A stretch of DNA of 64,000 bases, from assembly GCA_963845205.1 (NCBI GenBank), contig CAWJRC010000002.1, positions 216,825 through 280,824 of the forward strand. The letters are read 5' to 3'. The notes below the pieces were generated by a model. It was not told the DNA's origin, searched no databases, and saw nothing but the letters and a program-made list of their open reading frames with translations. The position numbers were made by a program, and so were the translations under genes. The number at the start of each line of letters is the position of its first letter. The stretch's first letter is position 1. Positions 26,826 through 34,498 of the stretch are shown piece after piece. This stretch comes from an uncultured archaeon (GTDB lineage: Archaea; Nanobdellota; Nanobdellia; Pacearchaeales; GW2011-AR1).

Positions 26826-27293
26826 ATGGGATTATTTGGAAATTTTCTGAAAGAGTACGTTGATCGTTTAGGAATTCCTATGCTTATTATCTTTACACTT
26901 TCAATTGTACAAGTTGTTCTTTCGGTTTTTTGGCAATCATTTTCTTTTATGGGCCAGATTGAAATATCTTCTAATCTTTATTTTCTTAAGTATAATCTTA
27001 TGAATCCGTTTTTTATGATTGAATTTTTTGAATTTTTTGTTGTATTTTGCTTTGGATTTTATCTTGCAAAAAAGAAATTCAAATTGAGAAATAACATTGT
27101 TGCAGGAATTGTTCTTTATTTTTCTTCTATACCCTCAATATTCTTTATTATCTTAATATTTCCTGTAGGAATACAATTGACTCTTAAATTATTCTGTATT
27201 GTAATTATTTTTGTAACCAATTTTTTATTTTTTATTTTGGCTTCTGTTTCGGGGGGAATTATTGGAAAATTATTTTTGAAACTAAAGGATTAA
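26826..27293 (+). CDS. small polytopic membrane protein
   Basis: 155 aa with 4-5 hydrophobic segments. Its stop codon TAA is the first 3 nt of the 23-bp att-like repeat. Confidence 0.5.
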   Translation: MGLFGNFLKEYVDRLGIPMLIIFTLSIVQVVLSVFWQSFSFMGQIEISSNLYFLKYNLMNPFFMIEFFEFFVVFCFGFYLAKKKFKLRNNIVAGIVLYFSSIPSIFFIILIFPVGIQLTLKLFCIVIIFVTNFLFFILASVSGGIIGKLFLKLKD

Positions 27294-27313
27294 TGCCCCC
27301 GCCGAGATTTGAA
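27291..27313. repeat. distal att-like direct repeat: copy of the tRNA-Glu 3' end (TAATGCCCCCGCCGAGATTTGAA)
   Basis: 23/23 identity with 30442-30464, same orientation, GC-rich in an AT-rich context. Confidence 0.85.
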
Positions 27314-27362
27314 AATGGGATTGAAAACCCAACCCGAGATAGTTTTGCTCATATATGGAGGA

Positions 27363-27757
27363 TTAAACCTTAGAATCCTCTACAACCTTCTTAGTAATCT
27401 TTATTGTTTCAGAACAGCATTGAACTAGCTCATTTGTTCTTGGTTTTGGAAAAGCACAAAAAACTATCTTTTTCTTTAAATGAGTTACAATATATCTAAT
27501 TGCAGGACAAAAATCTGCATTACTGCTAAAGAGCAAAGCTTTATCATACTTATTACTTAATGCGTCAAGTAAGAGATTTATTGCTAGATTAACATCTACA
27601 CCTTTTTCTGTAGACTTATAGGTATCAGAAAGTTTTATCTTTTTGTCACATTTTGGACAAGAGAGGTTATCTGCTTCTTGGACGCCACATTTATTACAAG
27701 TTATATTTATTTTGTTAAGCGGTCTTCTGACAAGATTCCCTAAATGAATTTGAATCA
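27363..27757 (-). pseudogene. NYN/LabA-like (DUF88) domain fragment with inserted Zn ribbon; N-terminus and start codon missing
   Basis: Hand translation: ...CNKCGVQEADNLSCPKC...TEKGVDVNLAINLLLDAL...LLFSSNADFCPAIRYIV...IVFCAF. The open frame has no Met and lacks the N-terminal half of the domain. Confidence 0.5.
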
Positions 27758-27760
27758 GAG

Positions 27761-28078
27761 ATGATAAAAAAAGATAAAAATAAATGGGATAAAGAAGAAA
27801 AAAAGCATTATAATCAATTAATTCTTTTCCTTAAGAAGATAACAAAAAATCCTGATAAAGACAAATCAATATTAATAATTGCTCATGGAATAACTAATAG
27901 AATAATCTTATCTTATTTTCTAGATTTAGAAATAAAAAAGTTGGTACAATTTAGACAATCTGAAGCGGGGCTTAACTCCATTTATTGGGTCGGAAAATTC
28001 AAGAATTGGAGATTGAAAATTTGGAATGATAATAATCACATTCCAAAAAGATTGAGATATAGCAAATTTAGTTATTAA
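27761..28078 (+). pseudogene. C-terminal fragment of a histidine phosphatase (phosphoglycerate-mutase family)
   Basis: ILIIAHGITNRIILSYFL...SEAGLNSIYW is the second-His (HG) half. The N-terminal RHG motif is absent. Confidence 0.5.
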
Positions 28079-28251
28079 TCTTTTTTTTGAAAAACCATTA
28101 TCGCCTTTGGAGGAAAGATATCCAGATTAACTGAATTTTCCTTGATAAATTCAGATTTTATCTGTTTCATGCCAGATTTTTCAAATATCTTTTTCCCTTC
28201 TTCCATAGTTTTATAATTGTAAAGAAGAATGCCCCCGTAAATTAAATTATC

Positions 28252-28437
28252 TTATAGACTATAACAAGGTCCTTCTCCATGACAAGGTTGATTACAGATA
28301 CAATCACAAGTATCACAAAAACAACTTTGGTCATATGTTTCGTTCTTTAAATCATATTTGGCACCAGCAAGAACTTGTGCCCCTTCTAATGATTTTAAAA
28401 TCTTTGAATCAATTTTTTTAATATTTTCTAGGCTCAT
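28252..28437 (-). CDS. Cys-rich 61-aa candidate precursor peptide
   Basis: Hydrophilic leader MSLENIKKIDSKILKSLEGAQVLAGAKYDLKNETYDQ, then SCFCDTCDCICNQPCHGEGPCYSL with 7 Cys in 24 residues. Start overlaps the stop of the upstream peptidase gene by 4 nt. Confidence 0.6.
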   Translation of the reverse strand: MSLENIKKIDSKILKSLEGAQVLAGAKYDLKNETYDQSCFCDTCDCICNQPCHGEGPCYSL

Positions 28438-29096
28438 TTCTCTCTACCTCCTTTCAATTCTATTAGAATATTTACGTTATATCCAAAAACTTTTTCAAAT
28501 AATTCAAAAAGTTCCTCTTCTTTCATATTAGAAGTAATTTGATTTAGAAATTGGATTAATTTTATATTCCCCTGTTCTTTAAAATGCTCCATAATTGCAC
28601 AGATAATCAAATGACCAACTCCATAATCATATCTTGTATCAATCCCGCCTCTTAATGTTGGTAATTTAAAATTTATTTTATTATTACATTGCTTATTACG
28701 ATGATATTCTGCAATCCCCTCATTAAACAAATGTAGATTAATAAATTTGGAATACCCATAAAATAAATGTGATAATTCATGAACGATTGCACCAAAGATA
28801 TTTTCTTTTTTGTGAAATGTATATTTTTCAATAACAGAGGGTGAAAAGATATTAACCGTAGTATTATATCCAGTCATAGCACTCATCCAATTTTCAAATT
28901 TTTTCCCAGTAAAGAATGAAAATTCTTCAGGTGAATAAATAAAACAGATTCTAATAATCGGCAAATCTCCTTCAAATATATAAAATTTTTTTATTTCCTG
29001 ATATTTTTCTTCAAGTTTTTCAAAATCAAATTCTTCAAGATAATCTTTATCTGCTTCTTCATATCTTATAAGGAATCTTCCTTTTTGGATTATCAT
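28434..29096 (-). CDS. HExxH zinc metallopeptidase (gluzincin / Peptidase_MA-like)
   Basis: AIVHELSHLFYG followed by LFNEGIAEYH (HExxH plus a downstream NEG..E third ligand). 4-nt overlaps on both sides. Confidence 0.65.
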   Translation of the reverse strand: MIIQKGRFLIRYEEADKDYLEEFDFEKLEEKYQEIKKFYIFEGDLPIIRICFIYSPEEFSFFTGKKFENWMSAMTGYNTTVNIFSPSVIEKYTFHKKENIFGAIVHELSHLFYGYSKFINLHLFNEGIAEYHRNKQCNNKINFKLPTLRGGIDTRYDYGVGHLIICAIMEHFKEQGNIKLIQFLNQITSNMKEEELFELFEKVFGYNVNILIELKGGREK

Positions 29097-30382
29097 TCTA
29101 ATAAAAATCCTCCCGCTTTTAAAATTCTTCCGAATGTTTCTGCTTTAAGTTTCAGATTTTCAGGAAAATCATTTAATCTAAAACCTGTAGACTTTATTCC
29201 TTCAACAAAGTCTTTCATTTGTTTGTTAACTAACAAAGTTTTCCCATTATATAATATGTATTTTCCTTCCTCTTCTTTTCTTGTTCCATAGAGATTTACT
29301 CTGTAGCGAATATCTTTATCCATAGAAGGAAGTTTTTTTAATGGTGTTTTTTGTTTTAGTATCTCAACCATCCTTGAGTCTTTTTTATCTATTGATTGTC
29401 CTTCTTGCAATCCTTCATATCTGCATCCCCCACCACAAGAGTTTACTTCAGCACATTCCTTGCATTCTTCAGGAACATATTTATTCTGCCTAAATAAAAC
29501 TAATCTGTCCCAAATGTCACTAAATGGTTCTTTAAACACATTCCCTTCGATGAATGGAGAATGCCCACAGGTTCTTATATCCCCGTTATAAGAAATTTGA
29601 ATTGTCCCTCTACCCGCTCCGCAACTTCTTTTGAATATTTGATCTTGTCTTAAATCTTCGGGCAGAGCACAATAAGGAATTACTTCCAAGGCATTTACTT
29701 TTATTCCAAAATCTTTTTTTAATTTTACTAAATCTCTTAAAACATTTGCCATTTCTTCATTGCTTAACTGATATCCTGAGTCTCTTCTAAATGCAGGTTT
29801 TAATGTTGGAGTTGTTGCAAAAGAATCAATACCAAAAGTTTCAACAAGAAATTTTCCTTGTGAATAGACTGAATCCTTATTGAGTTTATGAACAACCATA
29901 TTAATTGTTGGCTTAAATCCTTCTTGAATAAGAATTTCTAAATTTCCTAAAACTTTTTTTAAATTATCTTTCCCCGTAATTTGCTTAAATTTTTTACTTT
30001 GAAAATATGGCAGGGAAATTAAAAAACCCATATCTGAATTTGCATTTTTTAATTGTAAAATCTTTTCCTTACTTGCTAAGACAAGATTTGTATTCATACT
30101 GCAAGGAGCCTTTTTTTCATATAATCTTCTAGCAATTTCTATTGATGCAGGCATATTCATTAAAGGTTCTCCTCCTGTTATCACTATATCAAATGGTTTT
30201 ATCTTATCAAAAACTATATTCATTAATTCTCTTGCTGTCTCTGAAGACATTTTTTTATTAACTGGATTGTCTTCTCTCCAATAATTATAACAATAGAAAC
30301 ATCTGTGATTACAGTCTTCAGTTACTTCAATCTGAGCATTTAATGGGTATCTCAATCCTGTATTTTTATTGTAATCATCCAT
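29093..30382 (-). CDS. radical SAM enzyme with SPASM-type auxiliary cluster domain and C-terminal PqqD/RRE-like extension
   Basis: CNHRCFYC (CxxxCxxC), GGEPLMN, CGAGRGTIQISYNGDIRTCGHS, CKECAEVNSCGGGCRYEG (SPASM pattern). The last 90 aa or so (YILYNGKTLLVNKQMKDFVEGIKSTGFRLNDF...ILKAGGFL) resemble a peptide-recognition element. Confidence 0.8.
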   Translation of the reverse strand: MDDYNKNTGLRYPLNAQIEVTEDCNHRCFYCYNYWREDNPVNKKMSSETARELMNIVFDKIKPFDIVITGGEPLMNMPASIEIARRLYEKKAPCSMNTNLVLASKEKILQLKNANSDMGFLISLPYFQSKKFKQITGKDNLKKVLGNLEILIQEGFKPTINMVVHKLNKDSVYSQGKFLVETFGIDSFATTPTLKPAFRRDSGYQLSNEEMANVLRDLVKLKKDFGIKVNALEVIPYCALPEDLRQDQIFKRSCGAGRGTIQISYNGDIRTCGHSPFIEGNVFKEPFSDIWDRLVLFRQNKYVPEECKECAEVNSCGGGCRYEGLQEGQSIDKKDSRMVEILKQKTPLKKLPSMDKDIRYRVNLYGTRKEEEGKYILYNGKTLLVNKQMKDFVEGIKSTGFRLNDFPENLKLKAETFGRILKAGGFLLE

Positions 30383-30441
30383 ATGGGGATTATAATTAAT
30401 AACTTTAAAAATTCTTCTGTTGTTGTCACTTCAAAGATACT

Positions 30442-30464
30442 AATGCCCCCGCCGAGATTTGAAC
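30442..30464. repeat. proximal att-like direct repeat inside the tRNA-Glu 3' end
   Basis: Identical to 27291-27313. Covers the T-loop, the 3' T-stem, the 3' acceptor strand, the discriminator and 3 more nt. Confidence 0.85.
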
Positions 30465-30638
30465 TCGGGTTACCACCGTTCTCTAACTGCAGATTTCTCC
30501 GCAGTTCGAAGTCTGTTGACTTCTTCAAAAATGAGAGATTGCATTGAGATGCATAGATCTCTACTCTCATCGAGATTTGATCACCTCTCCATTTCGTTTT
30601 GAGAGGGTGGTGTCCTTGGCCTCTAGACTACAGGGGCA
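30445..30638 (-). tRNA. tRNA-Glu (anticodon CUC) with a 121-nt intron at the canonical 37/38 position (intron 30480-30600)
   Basis: Hand fold: acceptor GCCCCTG/CGGGGGC, D arm GTCT-AGAGGCCAA-GGAC, anticodon stem CCACC/GGTGG, T arm CCGAG-TTCAAAT-CTCGG. A bulge-helix-bulge can be drawn with CUCU/AGAG as the 4-bp helix and CAA and AAC as the bulges. Confidence 0.75.
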
Positions 30639-30675: not shown

Positions 30676-30960
30676 TTATGAAGAATTAGGTACGATATCT
30701 TTTAATCTAAAACTATTATCAAATTTTATTGCATATTCTACTGCTTTAATGTTTACCCCATATTCTGCAAGCTTACAAATTTTGTTGTATATTATCTGGG
30801 CCTGAAATTTTTTTGTTGTGGGGCAATTTTCATTACAGCATTGTGCTTCTAAAAATGCTTGTGTAATCTCTCTTTCTATAAAACGAATAGAAGGATCATC
30901 TAAATATCTTTTTTCTTTAACTTTAATTTTTGTGATTATATTAATTAATTTTTCGGTCAT
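30676..30960 (-). CDS. hypothetical protein between the divergent tRNAs
   Basis: 94-aa ORF, no motif. Confidence 0.4.
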   Translation of the reverse strand: MTEKLINIITKIKVKEKRYLDDPSIRFIEREITQAFLEAQCCNENCPTTKKFQAQIIYNKICKLAEYGVNIKAVEYAIKFDNSFRLKDIVPNSS

Positions 30961-31042: not shown

Positions 31043-31115
31043 AGCCCCATAGTACAGCGGTCAAGTATATCGCCCTCTGGAGGCGGTGACCCAGGTTCGA
31101 ATCCTGGTGGGGCTA
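31043..31115 (+). tRNA. tRNA-Gln (anticodon CUG)
   Basis: 73-nt hand fold: A1-U72 acceptor AGCCCCA/TGGGGCT (A1-U72 is typical of archaeal tRNA-Gln), anticodon arm TCGCC-CTCTGGA-GGCGG, T arm CCAGG-TTCGAAT-CCTGG. Confidence 0.85.
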
Positions 31116-31117
31116 TA
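31101..31117. repeat. attL core (ATCCTGGTGGGGCTATA) in the tRNA-Gln 3' end
   Basis: 17/17 identity with 55797-55813, direct orientation. Confidence 0.85.
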
Positions 31118-31202
31118 GATTATTCTGTCTCAGTTTGCAGGAACATTTTGGATACTTTTTGAGGTATAAAATAACTTATAGATTCTTTACCAAGAAAAAA
31201 TA

Positions 31203-32426
31203 ATGACTGAAGAAACAAGAAGGTTGCAGAATCCGGAAAAATATTATAAAGCCTTAGAGAAACTGAGAACAGATAAAACTTATTTATTAATTTCCAAAAA
31301 TAAGGAATTGATACTGCAATTTTTGCAGGATGCTGAAATCGGCAGAACAATATTGAAGGGACAGAAAAGAAAAATCAAACCAGGAAGGCTGCAACGCATG
31401 CTTGGACTATTGCTGAAGATGGATAATGAATGGTTCAAGAAACCTTTTAATGAAGTCTCTGAAGAAGATATGAGTCATTTTATTCTTAACCTTGAAAGAG
31501 GGATAATCAAATCTTCAAAAGGAGAACCTTATACAGGAGAGACACAATCAACAATAAAAAAATTTATCAGGAAATATTACAAATACCTGCTTGGAGAAAA
31601 AGAGAATTATCCGAAGCTAGTTCAGTTTATTGATACAAGCACAAGAATGCTTGAGATAAAGAGCCTGAGCAAGCAGGAGAATGATAAGTTGATTGAAAAC
31701 TCTTTTAAATTAATTTACAGATTTATTTTTGCAGTGCTTTATGACAGCGGAGCAAGAATTGAAGAGTTTTACAATATCAAGAAAAGTGATTTGAGCAATG
31801 AAAATGGAATCTACAAAATAAGAATCAGGATATCAAAGACAAATCCAAGAACAATAAACCTGCCACTTTATCCCAAGATAATTGAAGCATACTTAGAATC
31901 CAATAATTTTAAAGAAGATGATTTTTTATGCACAATTAATTATGGAACTTTAAGAAAATACATGAACCGTGTGGGAAAACAATTCCTCGGAAGGACTATT
32001 TCTCCACATACATTCAGACATGGATCTGCAACCTATTATGCAAATTATCTCAACAGGTATCAGCTATCCTATCGATATGGTTGGAGTGCTTCATCAAAGA
32101 TGCCAGATAGATACATAGATATGAATGGACTAATAGATGACGAAACAGTAACAAAGATTGCAGGAGAAAATTTTATCAAGACTGATAATGAAAATAAAGA
32201 ACTGAAAACAAAATTGGATGTAATTAGTTCTACAATGGCAGAATTATTAAAAAAGCAACAGGATATGGAGAGTCAGTTAGAAATAAGAAAATTGGAAGGA
32301 GAAATATTAACAGAGATGAATAATTTGCAAGTTGGGAATTCTGATGCAGCGTTAATTACATTTTTGAAAGAAAGAAAAGATGTAGTTAGCTCTCTTAAAC
32401 AAATTCTGAACTTAATTGAAAAATAG
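31203..32426 (+). CDS. int: tyrosine recombinase / integrase
   Basis: SGARIEEFYNIKKSDL (Arg I), HTFRHGSATYY (HxxR), GWSASSKMPDRYI (Trp/Tyr nucleophile region). Adjacent to attL. Confidence 0.85.
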   Translation: MTEETRRLQNPEKYYKALEKLRTDKTYLLISKNKELILQFLQDAEIGRTILKGQKRKIKPGRLQRMLGLLLKMDNEWFKKPFNEVSEEDMSHFILNLERGIIKSSKGEPYTGETQSTIKKFIRKYYKYLLGEKENYPKLVQFIDTSTRMLEIKSLSKQENDKLIENSFKLIYRFIFAVLYDSGARIEEFYNIKKSDLSNENGIYKIRIRISKTNPRTINLPLYPKIIEAYLESNNFKEDDFLCTINYGTLRKYMNRVGKQFLGRTISPHTFRHGSATYYANYLNRYQLSYRYGWSASSKMPDRYIDMNGLIDDETVTKIAGENFIKTDNENKELKTKLDVISSTMAELLKKQQDMESQLEIRKLEGEILTEMNNLQVGNSDAALITFLKERKDVVSSLKQILNLIEK

Positions 32427-32478
32427 ATACTTTTGACTTGGTAAGTTTCTATATGTTCTTGTATCTTAGAAATAATTA

Positions 32479-32616
32479 ATGGAGACATTTAACTTTCGAT
32501 TAGAGAAAGACATTCGAGATAAGCTGGACTTAATAGCCAGAAAATACCGACGGAGCAGAGCTGATGTTATACGATTAATGATTGAAGAGGAGGCTGTTAA
32601 AGATGAAGAGAAGTGA
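32479..32616 (+). CDS. ribbon-helix-helix (CopG/Arc-like) 45-aa protein
   Basis: Hand translation: METFNFRLEKDIRDKLDLIARKYRRSRADVIRLMIEEEAVKDEEK (beta strand plus two helices). Below the ORF-track cutoff. Confidence 0.55.
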   Translation: METFNFRLEKDIRDKLDLIARKYRRSRADVIRLMIEEEAVKDEEK

Positions 32617-32675
32617 ACTTAATCCGTTGATCCAGCGACTTCTTGATTTAACAAATAAATACTTGGAGATGCAAG

Positions 32676-32858
32676 ATGGAGCAAGAAGAAGCGAAGACAT
32701 ATCTCAAAAAGAAAGTTAGGCTAGTTCTAGATAATACTTATAGATTTACAGGAGAAGTAATAGAAATTACTCCTGATACTTTTTTGATTAATGATAAATT
32801 TGACAAGCAAGTTTCTCTTGCACTAAAGAATATAGTTAGCTGTGAGGTATTAGAATGA
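32676..32858 (+). CDS. hypothetical small protein
   Basis: 60 aa. 4-nt overlap with the downstream P-loop gene. Confidence 0.4.
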   Translation: MEQEEAKTYLKKKVRLVLDNTYRFTGEVIEITPDTFLINDKFDKQVSLALKNIVSCEVLE

Positions 32859-34498
32859 TATTTCCTTTGGACCCAGAAAGAAGTAAAGTCATGAGTGCTT
32901 ATATTTTTGATGAGTCTAAAGTCCTTAAAAAGAAAGTTTTTACTCAATTAAAATTAGATGATAATACTTTTGCCTATGGCATCTTATTGCCGAAAGAAAG
33001 AGAGCTTAAAGATAAAAAAGGAAATGTCGTCGGGAGAGAACAAGTTTGGTCTCCTGTATTAATAGATTCTGACAGAAATATTATAGAAGCAACAAAAGAA
33101 ATTGAATCAACATATAAAATTAAATTTGAATCAATCCCAGAATATTTTCCCCTTAGGTGGTCCCTTGAATCTATTAAAGGATATTTGGAAGGAGATGATA
33201 AAATCCCAGAATTAGAACCTCTAGAACTTTTCAATAAAATCAAAAATAAATATGAAGATAATTGTTTTTTCAAAGAACCAATATGGTATAAAATAAATTC
33301 TCTGTGGGATATTGGGACTTATTTTTTTGAGATATTTGATAATTATCCTATAAAAGAAGAAAGGGGATTACCAGGAACTGGAAAAACTAAAAGTATGAAA
33401 GTAAGTAAAAATATTTCTTTTAATGCTACAGATATAATGATAAATCCTAGTGAAGCAACACTTTTTAGAGAAACAAATGATAAGAGACCAACAAAGTTTA
33501 TAGATGAAGCAGAAAAATTATTTACTTTTAAAAAAGGTCAGATGGAATCGGATAATCGTGTTGAATTAATAAATGGTTCTTATTCTAAAGGATCGACTGT
33601 CCCGAGAATAGAAAAAGTTGGGAATAGATTTATCTGCGTTTACTATCATGTTTATTCTCCTACACGAATTGGCTCAATAAATGGACTCTTTGGAGCAACA
33701 GAATCCAGGACAATCACACAAGTTCATACCAGAAGTTTAGACAATGATCCTCGAGGAGAAAAAGAGCCACAAGACAATGATATTGAATTTAGAATTTTAA
33801 GAGATTATCTTTATCTATTCGGATTAAAATACTGGAAATTAGTTGAAGAATCTTATAGGGATAATTCTTTATATGAAAATCTTAAACTAAAGAAAAGAGA
33901 TTTACAAATTTGGAGACCTCTGCTTGCATTGGCTAAAGTTGCCAGTGATGAATGGTTTGAAGAAGTTGCAACTTTTGCTGAGAAATTGTCATTGCAACGA
34001 AAAGAGGATTTTTTGTCGGAGGAATCATGGGATTATAGAATTTTAGCCATTATCAAGGAAATGATTGAATCAGGAATTGAAATCATCAGACCTAAGATCA
34101 TTAAGGATAGATACGCACAGAAATATGTACAAGAAACAGAAAGGCCACTACATGAGAAAACAATAACTACAAGGTTGGATCATTTGGGGTTCAAAGAATT
34201 AAGACAAACTAAAGATAGGATTGGTGTGTCATATAAAATAAATAAAGAGAATTTTGAAATTATAGCAATTCCTATCTGTCCCGATTTATCATCGAATTCA
34301 TCACAATCATCACAATTCTTTGTTGATAATAAAAATTCTGTGACGAATGAAGAAAAAAATATGATGAATGGTGACAAATATGAAATTGTAAAAATAAATA
34401 GTCATGACGAATTGACGAAAAAAGATGAATATGACGAAAATCCGCAAGTTAATAATATAGAATTGAAAGGAGGTGATAAAAATGGTAATAACTCTTAA
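32855..34498 (+). CDS. P-loop NTPase, replication-helicase-like protein of mobile elements
   Basis: Walker A GLPGTGKTKS and Walker B KFIDEAE. LQIWRPLLALAKVASDEWF resembles the W-x-PLLAIA motif of DUF3631-type helicase-associated domains (from memory). No primase motif recognised. Confidence 0.55.
   Translation: MIFPLDPERSKVMSAYIFDESKVLKKKVFTQLKLDDNTFAYGILLPKERELKDKKGNVVGREQVWSPVLIDSDRNIIEATKEIESTYKIKFESIPEYFPLRWSLESIKGYLEGDDKIPELEPLELFNKIKNKYEDNCFFKEPIWYKINSLWDIGTYFFEIFDNYPIKEERGLPGTGKTKSMKVSKNISFNATDIMINPSEATLFRETNDKRPTKFIDEAEKLFTFKKGQMESDNRVELINGSYSKGSTVPRIEKVGNRFICVYYHVYSPTRIGSINGLFGATESRTITQVHTRSLDNDPRGEKEPQDNDIEFRILRDYLYLFGLKYWKLVEESYRDNSLYENLKLKKRDLQIWRPLLALAKVASDEWFEEVATFAEKLSLQRKEDFLSEESWDYRILAIIKEMIESGIEIIRPKIIKDRYAQKYVQETERPLHEKTITTRLDHLGFKELRQTKDRIGVSYKINKENFEIIAIPICPDLSSNSSQSSQFFVDNKNSVTNEEKNMMNGDKYEIVKINSHDELTKKDEYDENPQVNNIELKGGDKNGNNS

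What the first reader, a model, noticed from the sequence alone, without database searches (positions are those of the whole stretch)
28252..30382. Candidate archaeal RiPP system: radical-SAM/SPASM maturase, HExxH peptidase and a 7-Cys 61-aa peptide
Three minus-strand genes are chained by 4-nt overlaps (29093-29096 and 28434-28437).

1. A 429-aa radical SAM enzyme with CNHRCFYC, a SPASM-type auxiliary Cys cluster (CKECAEVNSCGGGCRYEG), and an unusual C-terminal extension of about 90 aa that resembles a PqqD/RRE leader-binding domain.
2. A 220-aa gluzincin (HELSH...NEGIAEY) that could act as leader peptidase.
3. A 61-aa peptide with a hydrophilic leader and the core SCFCDTCDCICNQPCHGEGPCYSL.

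This architecture recalls SCIFF/ranthipeptide/sactipeptide systems, where a radical SAM enzyme forms thioether crosslinks. The peptide, the peptidase partner and the C-terminal RRE placement do not match any family I recognise. The cassette is in a horizontally acquired islet of an apparently small archaeal genome. It may encode a secreted or antimicrobial peptide, or a redox or metal-binding peptide.
Basis: partly seen in the sequence, partly recalled or inferred. Interest (0 to 1): 0.8.

Follow-up and report, generated by a model that had tools for sequence, protein, structure and literature searches.

The report
Archaeal radical-SAM modified-peptide gene cassette
Three overlapping genes on a small tRNA-flanked islet of a tiny symbiotic archaeon (DPANN, Woesearchaeota-like) look like a kit for making a cross-linked, cysteine-rich peptide, and the same uncharacterised kit turns up in many ultra-small archaea and bacteria and in gut anaerobes.

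Summary
Three intact minus-strand genes with 4-nt overlaps encode a radical SAM/SPASM enzyme (429 aa), an HExxH...E zinc peptidase (220 aa) and a 61-aa peptide with 7 Cys.

The RiPP reading is supported:
- The small ORF is under purifying selection (dN/dS 0.07-0.38).
- 36 of 49 related loci have a Cys-rich ORF directly after the enzyme or its peptidase, against 3.8% at random positions.
- Nine archaeal precursors share a leader motif (L-x2-L-x2-A-x-[VI]-L) but have different cores.
- The enzyme's C-terminal 75 aa folds as strands followed by helices. It matches N-terminal PqqD-type RREs in a profile comparison (P=1e-4; controls give nothing).
- The peptidase is a stand-alone MA-clan gluzincin. 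It sits beside the enzyme in 24 fetched loci (21 different).

It spans DPANN archaea, Patescibacteria, rumen Bacteroidales and gut Clostridia. Cores are 33% Cys and 19% Asp. No NCBIfam model covers enzyme or peptide, and I found no paper on the family.

The cassette lies between exact 23-nt repeats of the 3' end of an intron-containing tRNA-Glu.

The chemistry is inferred, not shown; thioether cross-links are the likeliest. I rate it a new variant of a known kind, of moderate to high interest.

The parts
29093..30382 (-). Radical SAM/SPASM peptide maturase, 429 aa. The radical SAM cluster motif is C24-x3-C28-x2-C31. Seven Cys are conserved in the SPASM part (C238, C254, C272, C307, C310, C316, C320), plus the nearly invariant D335.
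   Evidence: ORF. Pfam Radical_SAM, Fer4_12 and SPASM above cutoff. Invariant columns. AF2 model pLDDT 94.7. Foldseek top hits are SuiB, CteB, anSME, SkfB and TigE. Best single-sequence PDB hit is CteB, E=5.5e-11.
29096..29320 (-). C-terminal RRE-like winged-helix domain of the maturase (about residues 355-429). It is the proposed binding site for the leader peptide.
   Evidence: AF2 secondary structure is E360-362, E366-369, E374-378, E382-386, then H387-396 and H408-423. The domain is conserved across the whole family, with R368 and E370 nearly invariant. hhalign against N-terminal PqqD-type RREs of distant homologues gives score 27.3 over 70 columns, P=1e-4, against 8.3 or less for reversed and shuffled controls. 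It occurs as a stand-alone 84-aa ORF in L088-L090. Pfam PqqD itself is not hit.
28434..29096 (-). Stand-alone MA-clan gluzincin metallopeptidase, 220 aa (H106-E107-x2-H110, E126). It is the proposed leader peptidase.
   Evidence: H106, E107, H110 and E126 are invariant in 29 homologues. AF2 pLDDT 94.6. Foldseek matches the M1 aminopeptidase F3 and M9 collagenase catalytic domains at E about 6e-4. An iterated HMM finds it next to the rSAM gene in 24 fetched loci, 21 of them different. Some relatives reach the Pfam Peptidase_MA_2 or BSP cutoff. The window protein itself stays below cutoff.
28252..28437 (-). Precursor peptide, 61 aa. The leader is about residues 1-36 and carries the motif L14-x2-L17-x2-A20-x-V22-L23. 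The core is about residues 37-61, QSCFCDTCDCICNQPCHGEGPCYSL, with 7 Cys.
   Evidence: ORF. Ten homologues with an invariant CNQPCHGEGPCY. dN/dS 0.07-0.38. The leader motif is shared with precursors that have different cores. The leader/core boundary is inferred, not determined.
30441..30463 (.). Left copy of the exact 23-nt direct repeat TAATGCCCCCGCCGAGATTTGAA. It covers the 3' end of tRNA-Glu and looks like an att site.
   Evidence: two exact copies, 0 expected in shuffles.
27291..27313 (.). Right copy of the 23-nt repeat. Together the two copies bound a 3.15-kb islet (27314-30440).
30443..30638 (-). tRNA-Glu(CUC) with a 121-nt intron. It is the probable integration target.
   Evidence: ARAGORN run with the intron option. 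Sequence read. Default ARAGORN and Rfam both miss it.
27363..28078 (.). Other cargo of the islet, all gene fragments: a truncated NYN-domain gene (27363-27749, minus strand) and a truncated histidine-phosphatase gene (27761-28078, plus strand).
   Evidence: Pfam NYN matches profile positions 71-144 of 145 only. His_Phos_1 matches positions 129-193 of 194 only.

Best explanation
This is a three-gene RiPP (ribosomally synthesised, post-translationally modified peptide) cassette.

1. **Recognition.** The 61-aa precursor is recognised through its leader (motif L-x2-L-x2-A-x-[VI]-L) by the RRE-like domain. Unusually, that domain is fused to the C-terminus of the radical SAM/SPASM enzyme.
2. **Cross-linking.** The enzyme cleaves SAM reductively and abstracts hydrogen atoms from acceptor residues in the core. 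It joins them to Cys sulfurs as thioether cross-links. These could be sactionine links to the Gly54/Gly56 alpha-carbons, as in StsA/BlaA, and/or links to the beta- or gamma-carbons of Asp, Asn or Glu, as made by PapB and QhpD.
3. **Leader removal.** The co-translated 220-aa gluzincin then removes the leader, leaving a compact, heavily cross-linked peptide of about 25 residues.
4. **Mobility.** The cassette travels as a self-contained module. Here it sits on a 3.15-kb islet inserted at a tRNA-Glu.

Shown: gene content, domain identities, conservation of the triad, the leader/core pattern, and the islet boundaries. Inferred: leader binding to the C-terminal domain, thioether chemistry and which carbons are attacked, the cleavage site, and the biological role. 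The role could be antagonism, signalling or metal binding. No exporter is encoded.
For: - **Enzyme class:** searches place it as an rSAM/SPASM enzyme nearest to the peptide and protein maturases SuiB, CteB, SkfB, anSME and TigE. No cofactor-biosynthesis or anSME equivalog is reached.
- **Precursor is a real, selected gene:**
- **Co-occurrence:** 36 of 49 family loci carry a Cys-rich ORF directly downstream, against 3.8% at random anchors (listing).
- **RiPP-type leader/core pattern:** nine archaeal precursors share the leader motif while their cores diverge. Two tandem triads in L091 show the same thing.
- **RRE-like domain:**
- **Peptidase:** catalytic residues invariant and MA-clan fold. It is adjacent to the rSAM gene in 24 fetched loci (21 different) in varying order and orientation.
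- **Core composition:** C 33% and D 19%. The residue after Cys is Asp in 110 of about 220 cases. This fits the Cys-Asp thioethers made by PapB and QhpD (PMC8326336).
- **Window core motif:** C46-x-C48-x5-G54-x-G56 resembles the CxCx4GxG and CxCxCx4GxGxG sactionine motifs of BlaA and StsA (PMC10288494).
Against: - No chemistry has been observed.
- The enzyme falls far below the cutoffs for PapB (78 against 340), SCIFF (51 against 425) and StsB (58 against 625). Sequence does not settle the type of bond.
- Pfam PqqD does not hit the C-terminal domain. The hhalign probability is only 57%.
- The window peptidase is below every Pfam cutoff.
- No exporter or immunity gene is in the cassette.
- In two relatives the rSAM gene is deleted (L088-L090) or broken (L093) while the peptidase and precursor stay intact. 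Modification by this enzyme may therefore be dispensable, or the cassette may be prone to decay.
- The islet also carries gene fragments.
Confidence: 0.6

Rival explanations
1. It is a RiPP cassette, but the radical SAM enzyme performs chemistry other than thioether formation. Candidates are carbon-carbon or ether cross-links, epimerisation, Cys or Asp side-chain oxidation as anSME does, or a bond type not yet described that is specific to Cys-Asp pairs.
For: No thioether-maturase equivalog is reached. SPASM enzymes with similar scores carry out many different reactions: SuiB makes C-C bonds, TigE makes cyclopropyl groups, and PqqE and MftC do other chemistry. A CD dipeptide in 38 of 42 cores is not the spacing used by the known PapB (CX3D) or StsB substrates.
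Against: The cores are one-third Cys. Every characterised rSAM/SPASM system with Cys-rich cores (SCIFF, PapA, QhpC, the sactipeptides, StsA) forms thioethers (PMC8326336; PMC10288494). The best single-sequence PDB hit is the thioether synthase CteB.
Confidence: 0.22
2. In this genome the cassette is a decaying, non-functional passenger of a degraded integrated element. The genes are intact by chance of recency and no product is made.
For: The islet has no integrase and holds truncated NYN and His_Phos_1 genes. Relatives show loss or breakage of the rSAM gene.
Against: All three window ORFs are full length and retain every invariant catalytic residue. The precursor has dN/dS 0.07-0.38. The 4-nt overlaps are preserved. 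An A/T-rich TATA-like stretch lies about 20-30 nt upstream of the rSAM start codon; this was read by eye.
Confidence: 0.1
3. The small protein is an unmodified metal-binding or iron-sulfur-handling peptide of the metallothionein type. The neighbouring rSAM and peptidase genes would then have unrelated housekeeping roles.
For: Seven Cys plus His, Asp and Glu in 25 residues would bind metals. In two relatives the peptide persists without an intact rSAM gene.
Against: Linkage between the enzyme and hypervariable Cys-rich ORFs holds across phyla. The leader is conserved while the core varies. The enzyme carries an RRE-like domain. The genes are translationally coupled by 4-nt overlaps.
Confidence: 0.05

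Closest known systems
Ranthipeptide systems: PapA/PapB (freyrasin), SCIFF CteA/CteB, and the QhpD/QhpC thioether maturase
   Same: All use an rSAM/SPASM enzyme on a short Cys-rich substrate. Cys-Asp pairs dominate the cores, as in PapA and QhpC. CteB is the best single-sequence PDB hit. PapB is the second-best NCBIfam hit.
   Different: Scores are far below the family cutoffs (PapB 78 against 340, SCIFF 51 against 425). The RRE-like domain is C-terminal rather than N-terminal; CteB and SuiB carry it N-terminally (PMC8326336), as do the distant homologues. The cores have CxC and CD repeats rather than CX3D or the SCIFF pattern. There is a dedicated MA-clan peptidase.
StsA/StsB/StsC and BlaA/BlaB hairpin sactipeptides (PMC10288494)
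   Same: The StsA and BlaA cores (CxCxCx4GxGxG and CxCx4GxG) resemble the window's C44xC46xC48-x5-G54xG56. StsB needs an RRE (StsC) for full activity. [quoted passage not shown]
   Different: StsB scores 58 bits against a cutoff of 625. The RRE is a separate protein in the Sts system. Most members of the wider family have no GxG after the Cys cluster.
Leader removal by M1-type zinc peptidases in class III lanthipeptides (AplP-like). This is recalled from my own knowledge and was not checked here.
   Same: A gluzincin of the MA clan is used as the RiPP leader peptidase.
   Different: AplP-like enzymes are large multidomain M1 aminopeptidases and are not encoded in the cluster. Here the peptidase is a minimal 220-aa catalytic domain, translationally coupled to the maturase and the precursor, and it has no GxMEN exopeptidase motif (sequence).
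Proteusin epimerases (PoyD family), which have a C-terminal RRE
   Same: A radical SAM RiPP enzyme with the RRE at the C-terminus (PMC8326336).
   Different: Those enzymes have no SPASM auxiliary clusters, and they epimerise residues in long nitrile-hydratase-like precursors.

Membership tests
Radical SAM superfamily | CX3CX2C cluster motif and a Pfam PF04055 match above the gathering score | tested here: met
   C24-x3-C28-x2-C31. PF04055 scores 69.1 bits against a cutoff of 29.5.
SPASM subgroup | C-terminal auxiliary-cluster domain with the CX2CX5CX3C motif and the upstream Cys...G-x4-C | tested here: met
   PF13186 scores 32.9 bits against a cutoff of 21.5. C254, G267, C272, C307, C316 and C320 are invariant and C310 is conserved in 90% or more of 98 sequences. 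There is no conserved eighth Cys; the nearly invariant D335 is a candidate ligand (inference).
SCIFF maturase / SCIFF precursor (TIGR03974 and its precursor model) | NCBIfam equivalog score above cutoff for the enzyme, and a hit to the precursor model | tested here: not met
   51.3 bits against a cutoff of 425. The precursor matches no NCBIfam family.
PapB-family ranthipeptide maturase (NF047865) | Equivalog score of at least 340, and CX3D-repeat precursors | tested here: not met
   77.8 bits. The window core has one CX3D (C41...D45). 27 of 42 family cores contain C...D.
StsB-family sactisynthase (NF045574) | Score of at least 625, and a CxCxCx4GxGxG core | tested here: not met
   58.2 bits. 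The core motif is only similar (CxCxC-x5-GxG).
Anaerobic sulfatase maturase, and the NirJ/AhbC/AhbD and MoaA cofactor enzymes | Equivalog score above cutoff, and no dedicated peptide substrate gene | tested here: not met
   anSME 46.6 against 349, NirJ2 84.4 against 500, AhbD 72.2 against 500, MoaA 67.7 against 325. A conserved adjacent precursor is present.
RRE / PqqD-like leader-binding domain | About 80-90 aa with three strands and three helices, detectable homology to PqqD-type domains, and binding of the leader as an added strand | tested here: inconclusive
   The topology fits (definition taken from PMC11002830). hhalign against N-terminal PqqD-type RREs gives P=1e-4 and probability 57%, with controls negative. 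Pfam PF05402 is not hit in any of 35 members. Leader binding cannot be tested with these tools.
MA-clan gluzincin (Peptidase_MA_2 / BSP / M1-like) | HExxH plus a downstream Glu as third zinc ligand, and a thermolysin-like catalytic fold | tested here: met
   H106, E107, H110 and E126 are invariant. Foldseek matches M1 and M9 catalytic domains with probability 1.0. Family members L026 and P0204 exceed the PF13485 cutoff, and L017, L041, P0223 and P0253 exceed the PF04450 (BSP) cutoff. The window protein itself is below cutoff, so membership holds at clan level only.
RiPP biosynthetic gene cluster (general definition) | A gene-encoded precursor with a leader and a core next to its modifying enzyme, with the modification demonstrated | not testable with these tools
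   The genetic features are met. The modification itself needs expression and mass spectrometry.

The most novel reading that the evidence does not exclude
The cassette stands for a widespread, undescribed RiPP class ('CD-repeat' peptides). It would be defined by three parts: an rSAM/SPASM enzyme with a C-terminal RRE, a minimal MA-clan leader peptidase, and cores built of Cys-Asp repeats. Its enzyme would install a cross-link pattern not yet seen, for example ladders of very short Cys-to-neighbouring-Asp thioether rings, or a new kind of bond. The class is concentrated in ultra-small episymbionts (DPANN archaea, Patescibacteria) and in gut and rumen anaerobes. The products might therefore mediate symbiont-host or community interactions.
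Probability: 0.25. Interest if true: 0.8.

Novelty: new variant of a known kind. Interest (0 to 1): 0.6.

Why it matters
Radical SAM RiPPs are a productive source of new peptide chemistry and new bioactive scaffolds. This family is absent from NCBIfam, and I found no paper describing it.

It has an unusual domain order, with the RRE placed after the SPASM domain, and it has its own minimal zinc peptidase. Its very Cys- and Asp-rich cores predict extremely dense cross-linking.

DPANN archaea and Patescibacteria have strongly reduced genomes. A three-gene cassette that they keep and exchange is a concrete candidate for molecules acting at the symbiont-host interface, and almost no such molecules are known. 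The cassette is only about 2.1 kb, so it can be tested directly by heterologous expression.

Tried and rejected
- **Pfam and NCBIfam on the peptide and on six related precursors:** no family matched. They are therefore not known SCIFF, PapA, CefA, ACGX or similar precursors.
- **Pfam PqqD on 35 C-terminal domains:** no hit, only scattered weak winged-helix matches. A profile search of the same domains against PDB sequences gave nothing significant. The only suggestive row was the N-terminal region of TigE at E=1.3.
- **Foldseek of the whole rSAM model:** this aligned only the core, about 355 columns, so it says nothing about the C-terminal domain.
- **'Catalytic site proximity' positions from PMC10288494:** the window enzyme reads Y32, T69, N97, S123, G273, H274. 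CteB reads F, F, T, S, H, Q and StsB reads Y, T, I, S, K, L. This does not decide between sacti- and ranthi-type chemistry.
- **Sigma-70 promoter and terminator scan:** uninformative for an archaeon.
- **Scan of viral contigs for the enzyme:** none found.
- **PADLOC:** only generic similarity of the rSAM core to viperins, so this is not a known defence system.
- **Repeat of the tRNA-Gln 3' end** that might delimit the neighbouring integrase element: none found.
- **The 20-nt tRNA-Glu repeat in the 92 related loci fetched up to that point:** absent, so the insertion site is not shared.
- **Eight literature searches** (DPANN, Woesearchaeota, Patescibacteria or Saccharibacteria combined with RiPP, ranthipeptide or radical SAM; C-terminal RRE; Cys-rich precursors): no description of this family.
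Full report
**1. The observation**

One search lists three minus-strand ORFs at exactly the reported coordinates: 30382-29093 (429 aa), 29096-28434 (220 aa) and 28437-28252 (61 aa). Each stop codon overlaps the next start codon by 4 nt. All quoted motifs are present. Pfam places the first protein in Radical_SAM (69.1 bits), Fer4_12 and SPASM (32.9 bits), all above the gathering scores.

The 220-aa protein gets only sub-threshold BSP and M1 peptidase matches. The 61-aa peptide matches nothing.

**2. The small ORF is a real gene**

The protein database holds ten homologues of the peptide (51-100% identity). The C-terminus CNQPCHGEGPCY is invariant or nearly so, and the N-terminal half varies more. 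Codon-level comparison with four orthologous loci gives dN/dS of 0.07-0.38.

**3. The triad recurs**

The same gene order, rSAM then a peptidase of about 220 aa then a peptide of about 60 aa, appears next to rSAM homologues of 70%, 48% and 41% identity. The surrounding genes are different each time (L001, L003, L006). It also appears twice in tandem in L091.

The cores differ from one cassette to the next:
- window: ...CDTCDCICNQPCHGEGPCYSL
- L003: ...GCDCICHTPCDFG followed by a long tail
- L006: ...TCDNICDDFCNDCPGD...
- L091a: ...YCNVCQQCDVCKISCNSLPRP

The N-terminal parts share L-x2-L-x2-A-x-[VI]-L. A conserved leader combined with a variable core is the classical signature of a RiPP.

**4. 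The family is much wider than archaea**

A scan of one genome per GTDB species returned 80 loci. I analysed them with scripts.

Enzymes of 415-490 aa with the same C-terminal domain occur in:
- Woese-, Pace- and Nanoarchaeota
- many Patescibacteria, including Saccharibacteria
- rumen Bacteroidales
- gut Clostridia
- a few Gammaproteobacteria, Myxococcales and Anaerolineae

A Cys-rich ORF of 30-95 aa starts directly after the enzyme, or after its peptidase, in 36 of 49 testable loci. The rate at random anchors in the same loci is 3.8%. Several of the 'negatives' do have an obvious precursor that failed my strict filter (L003, L006, L021) or one upstream (L007, L037).

Across 42 precursors the cores are 33% Cys and 19% Asp. 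Asp follows Cys in about half of all cases, and the Cys-to-Cys spacing is mostly 2 or 3. Examples:
- NCFGCDSCDSGDCDSCDSCDCDCDSNW (Bacteroidales)
- CFSCDGSCHCECDGGGDCDWG (Clostridia)
- ACYCNCGCACHVTG (Patescibacteria)
- YSCDAVCDNCHCATF (Pacearchaeota)

No NCBIfam model reaches its cutoff for four diverse enzymes or six precursors or for the window proteins.

**5. The enzyme**

The best NCBIfam scores are NirJ2 84 (cutoff 500), PapB 78 (cutoff 340), AhbD 72, GeoRSP 68 and MoaA 68. SCIFF scores 51, StsB 58 and anSME 47. All are far below their cutoffs.

The family profile's best PDB matches are SkfB, TigE, PqqE, SuiB, anSME and CteB. The single sequence is closest to CteB.

The AF2 model is confident (pLDDT 94.7, pTM 0.92). 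Foldseek ranks SuiB, CteB, anSME, SkfB and TigE first.

C238, C254, C272, C307, C316 and C320 are invariant in the SPASM part, and C310 is nearly so. The usual eighth Cys is missing. The nearly invariant D335 may take its place; this is an inference.

**6. The C-terminal domain**

Residues about 355-429 are predicted as four short strands followed by helices 387-396 and 408-423, with a short turn between them. This matches the canonical RRE description of three strands plus three helices (PMC11002830). The domain is present throughout the family, with R368 and E370 nearly invariant.

Sequence searches fail to name it. Pfam PqqD is not hit in any of 35 members, and the PDB sequence search is not significant.

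More distant homologues carry a Pfam-detectable PqqD domain at the N-terminus (P0115 residues 19-83; P0113; L074). A profile of those N-terminal domains aligns with the C-terminal-domain profile over 70 columns in the right register. The score is 27.3, P=1e-4, probability 57%. Reversed and 20 column-shuffled controls score 8.3 or less over 1-11 columns.

In three assemblies (L088-L090) the whole catalytic part of the enzyme is gone. What remains is an 84-aa ORF corresponding exactly to this domain, in front of an intact peptidase and precursor. This shows the domain is an autonomous unit.

I conclude that it is RRE-like. It is placed after the SPASM domain, not before the rSAM core as in SuiB, CteB and the distant homologues. 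C-terminal RREs are known in the non-SPASM proteusin epimerases (PMC8326336).

**7. The peptidase**

H106, E107, H110 and E126 are invariant in 29 homologues. The AF2 model (pLDDT 94.6) matches the catalytic domains of M1 aminopeptidases (tricorn factor F3, ERAP, APN) and M9 collagenases. The profile also finds M1 aminopeptidase active-site regions weakly by sequence.

A single-sequence search found the partner only in the close DPANN clade. An iterated HMM finds it within about 1 kb of the rSAM gene in 24 fetched loci, 21 of them different once identical copies are removed. These include Patescibacteria, Clostridia (on the opposite strand), a gammaproteobacterium and other DPANN lineages. In the Nanoarchaeia and Pacearchaeota loci L021 and L017 the order is rSAM, peptide, peptidase.

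Some members pass the Peptidase_MA_2 or BSP cutoffs. In a library of 1.84 billion representatives the family has only 388 members at E of 1e-3 or better. Almost all are 190-250 aa. Rumen Bacteroidales loci lack it and often carry two tandem precursors.

**8. The islet**

An exact 23-nt direct repeat, TAATGCCCCCGCCGAGATTTGAA, lies at 27291-27313 and at 30441-30463. Zero copies are expected by chance. The left copy is the 3' end of a tRNA-Glu(CUC) gene with a 121-nt intron at 30443-30638 on the minus strand. Default ARAGORN and Rfam miss this gene, and ARAGORN with introns allowed finds it.

The 3.15-kb interval contains only the triad plus truncated NYN and histidine-phosphatase genes. There is no integrase inside. 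A tyrosine-recombinase gene sits about 750 nt away, beyond a divergent tRNA-Gln.

G+C content is not distinctive, at 0.28-0.29 against about 0.30 elsewhere. None of the related loci fetched at that point shares the repeat, and the contexts of the seven related cassette places examined all differ. The cassette therefore moves as a module. It was not found in viral contigs.

**9. Mechanism**

The most likely sequence of events is:
1. the leader docks on the C-terminal RRE-like domain;
2. the enzyme abstracts hydrogen atoms using SAM and forms thioethers between core Cys residues and acceptor carbons;
3. the gluzincin removes the leader.

Two precedents bear on which carbons are attacked. PapB and QhpD link Cys to the Asp beta-carbon, and QhpD also links Cys to the Glu gamma-carbon (PMC8326336). 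That fits the family-wide Cys/Asp composition. StsB and BlaB link Cys to Gly alpha-carbons in CxCxCx4GxGxG and CxCx4GxG cores, forming hairpins (PMC10288494). That fits the window's invariant C46-x-C48-x5-G54-x-G56.

Sequence cannot decide between them. The six active-site-proximal positions are not diagnostic. Non-thioether chemistry remains possible.

**10. Caveats**

Nothing here is experimental. The rSAM gene is deleted in L088-L090. In L093 it is broken into 309-aa and 105-aa ORFs that lack the CX2CX5CX3C stretch. In both cases the peptidase and precursor stay intact, and another rSAM/SPASM gene lies nearby. This could mean decay, or takeover by another enzyme. No exporter or immunity gene is linked. 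PADLOC shows only generic similarity of the rSAM core to viperins.

**11. Verdict**

The cassette belongs to a broad, cross-domain, uncurated family of rSAM/SPASM RiPP systems with three unusual features: a C-terminal RRE-like domain, a minimal MA-clan peptidase, and Cys-Asp-rich cores. I rate it a new variant of a known kind, with interest 0.6.

Noticed in passing
window 30443-30638 (-): tRNA-Glu(CUC) gene with a 121-nt intron in the anticodon loop. Default ARAGORN and Rfam do not report it. ARAGORN with introns allowed does.
   Followed up: yes
window 31043-34498 (+): tRNA-Gln(CUG) is followed directly by a Phage_integrase-family ORF (31203-32426) and a 547-aa DUF3631-like ORF (32855-34498). 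This is probably a second integrated element next to the islet. I found no repeat of the tRNA-Gln 3' end that would mark its far border.
   Followed up: partly
window 27363-28078: Two truncated genes lie inside the islet. One is the C-terminal half of a NYN-domain protein with a zinc ribbon (27363-27749, minus strand). The other is the last third of a histidine phosphatase (27761-28078, plus strand).
   Followed up: yes
L088 6088-7192 (same in L089, L090): In a Woesearchaeota lineage the rSAM gene is reduced to an 84-aa stand-alone ORF equal to its C-terminal RRE-like domain. The peptidase and the 63-aa precursor that follow are intact.
   Followed up: partly
L093 4063-6186: The rSAM gene is split into 309-aa and 105-aa ORFs and the CX2CX5CX3C stretch is missing. 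The peptidase and a precursor 85% identical to the window's are intact. Another rSAM/SPASM gene (445 aa, with an N-terminal extension) lies 1.4 kb upstream.
   Followed up: partly
L091 345-7055: Two complete triads sit 2.4 kb apart in one genome. Their leaders are similar (…LLENLAKAEVL… and …ILESLEGAKIL…) but their cores are unrelated.
   Followed up: partly
L088 12625-13925: A second, different system: a 67-aa precursor ending NCYDCDSCNSCGSGDCNSCCEVVDD lies directly upstream of a 361-aa rSAM/SPASM enzyme that has no C-terminal domain.
   Followed up: no
L012-L016, L019, L020, L049 (rumen Bacteroidales): These loci often carry two tandem precursors with a shared leader motif (…V/I-x-YDFSNL-x-LQENSK-x-NCF…) and no MA peptidase. 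Membrane or lipoprotein-like ORFs follow instead.
   Followed up: no
P0204, P0223, P0253: Rare longer relatives of the peptidase. One is fused to a GNAT acetyltransferase domain. Two are about twice the usual length (422-424 aa); P0223 matches the peptidase profile in two stretches.
   Followed up: partly
window 30676-30960 (-): A 94-aa ORF lies between the two tRNA genes. It has no Pfam match and contains a CCNENC motif. Whether it is a gene is unknown.
   Followed up: no
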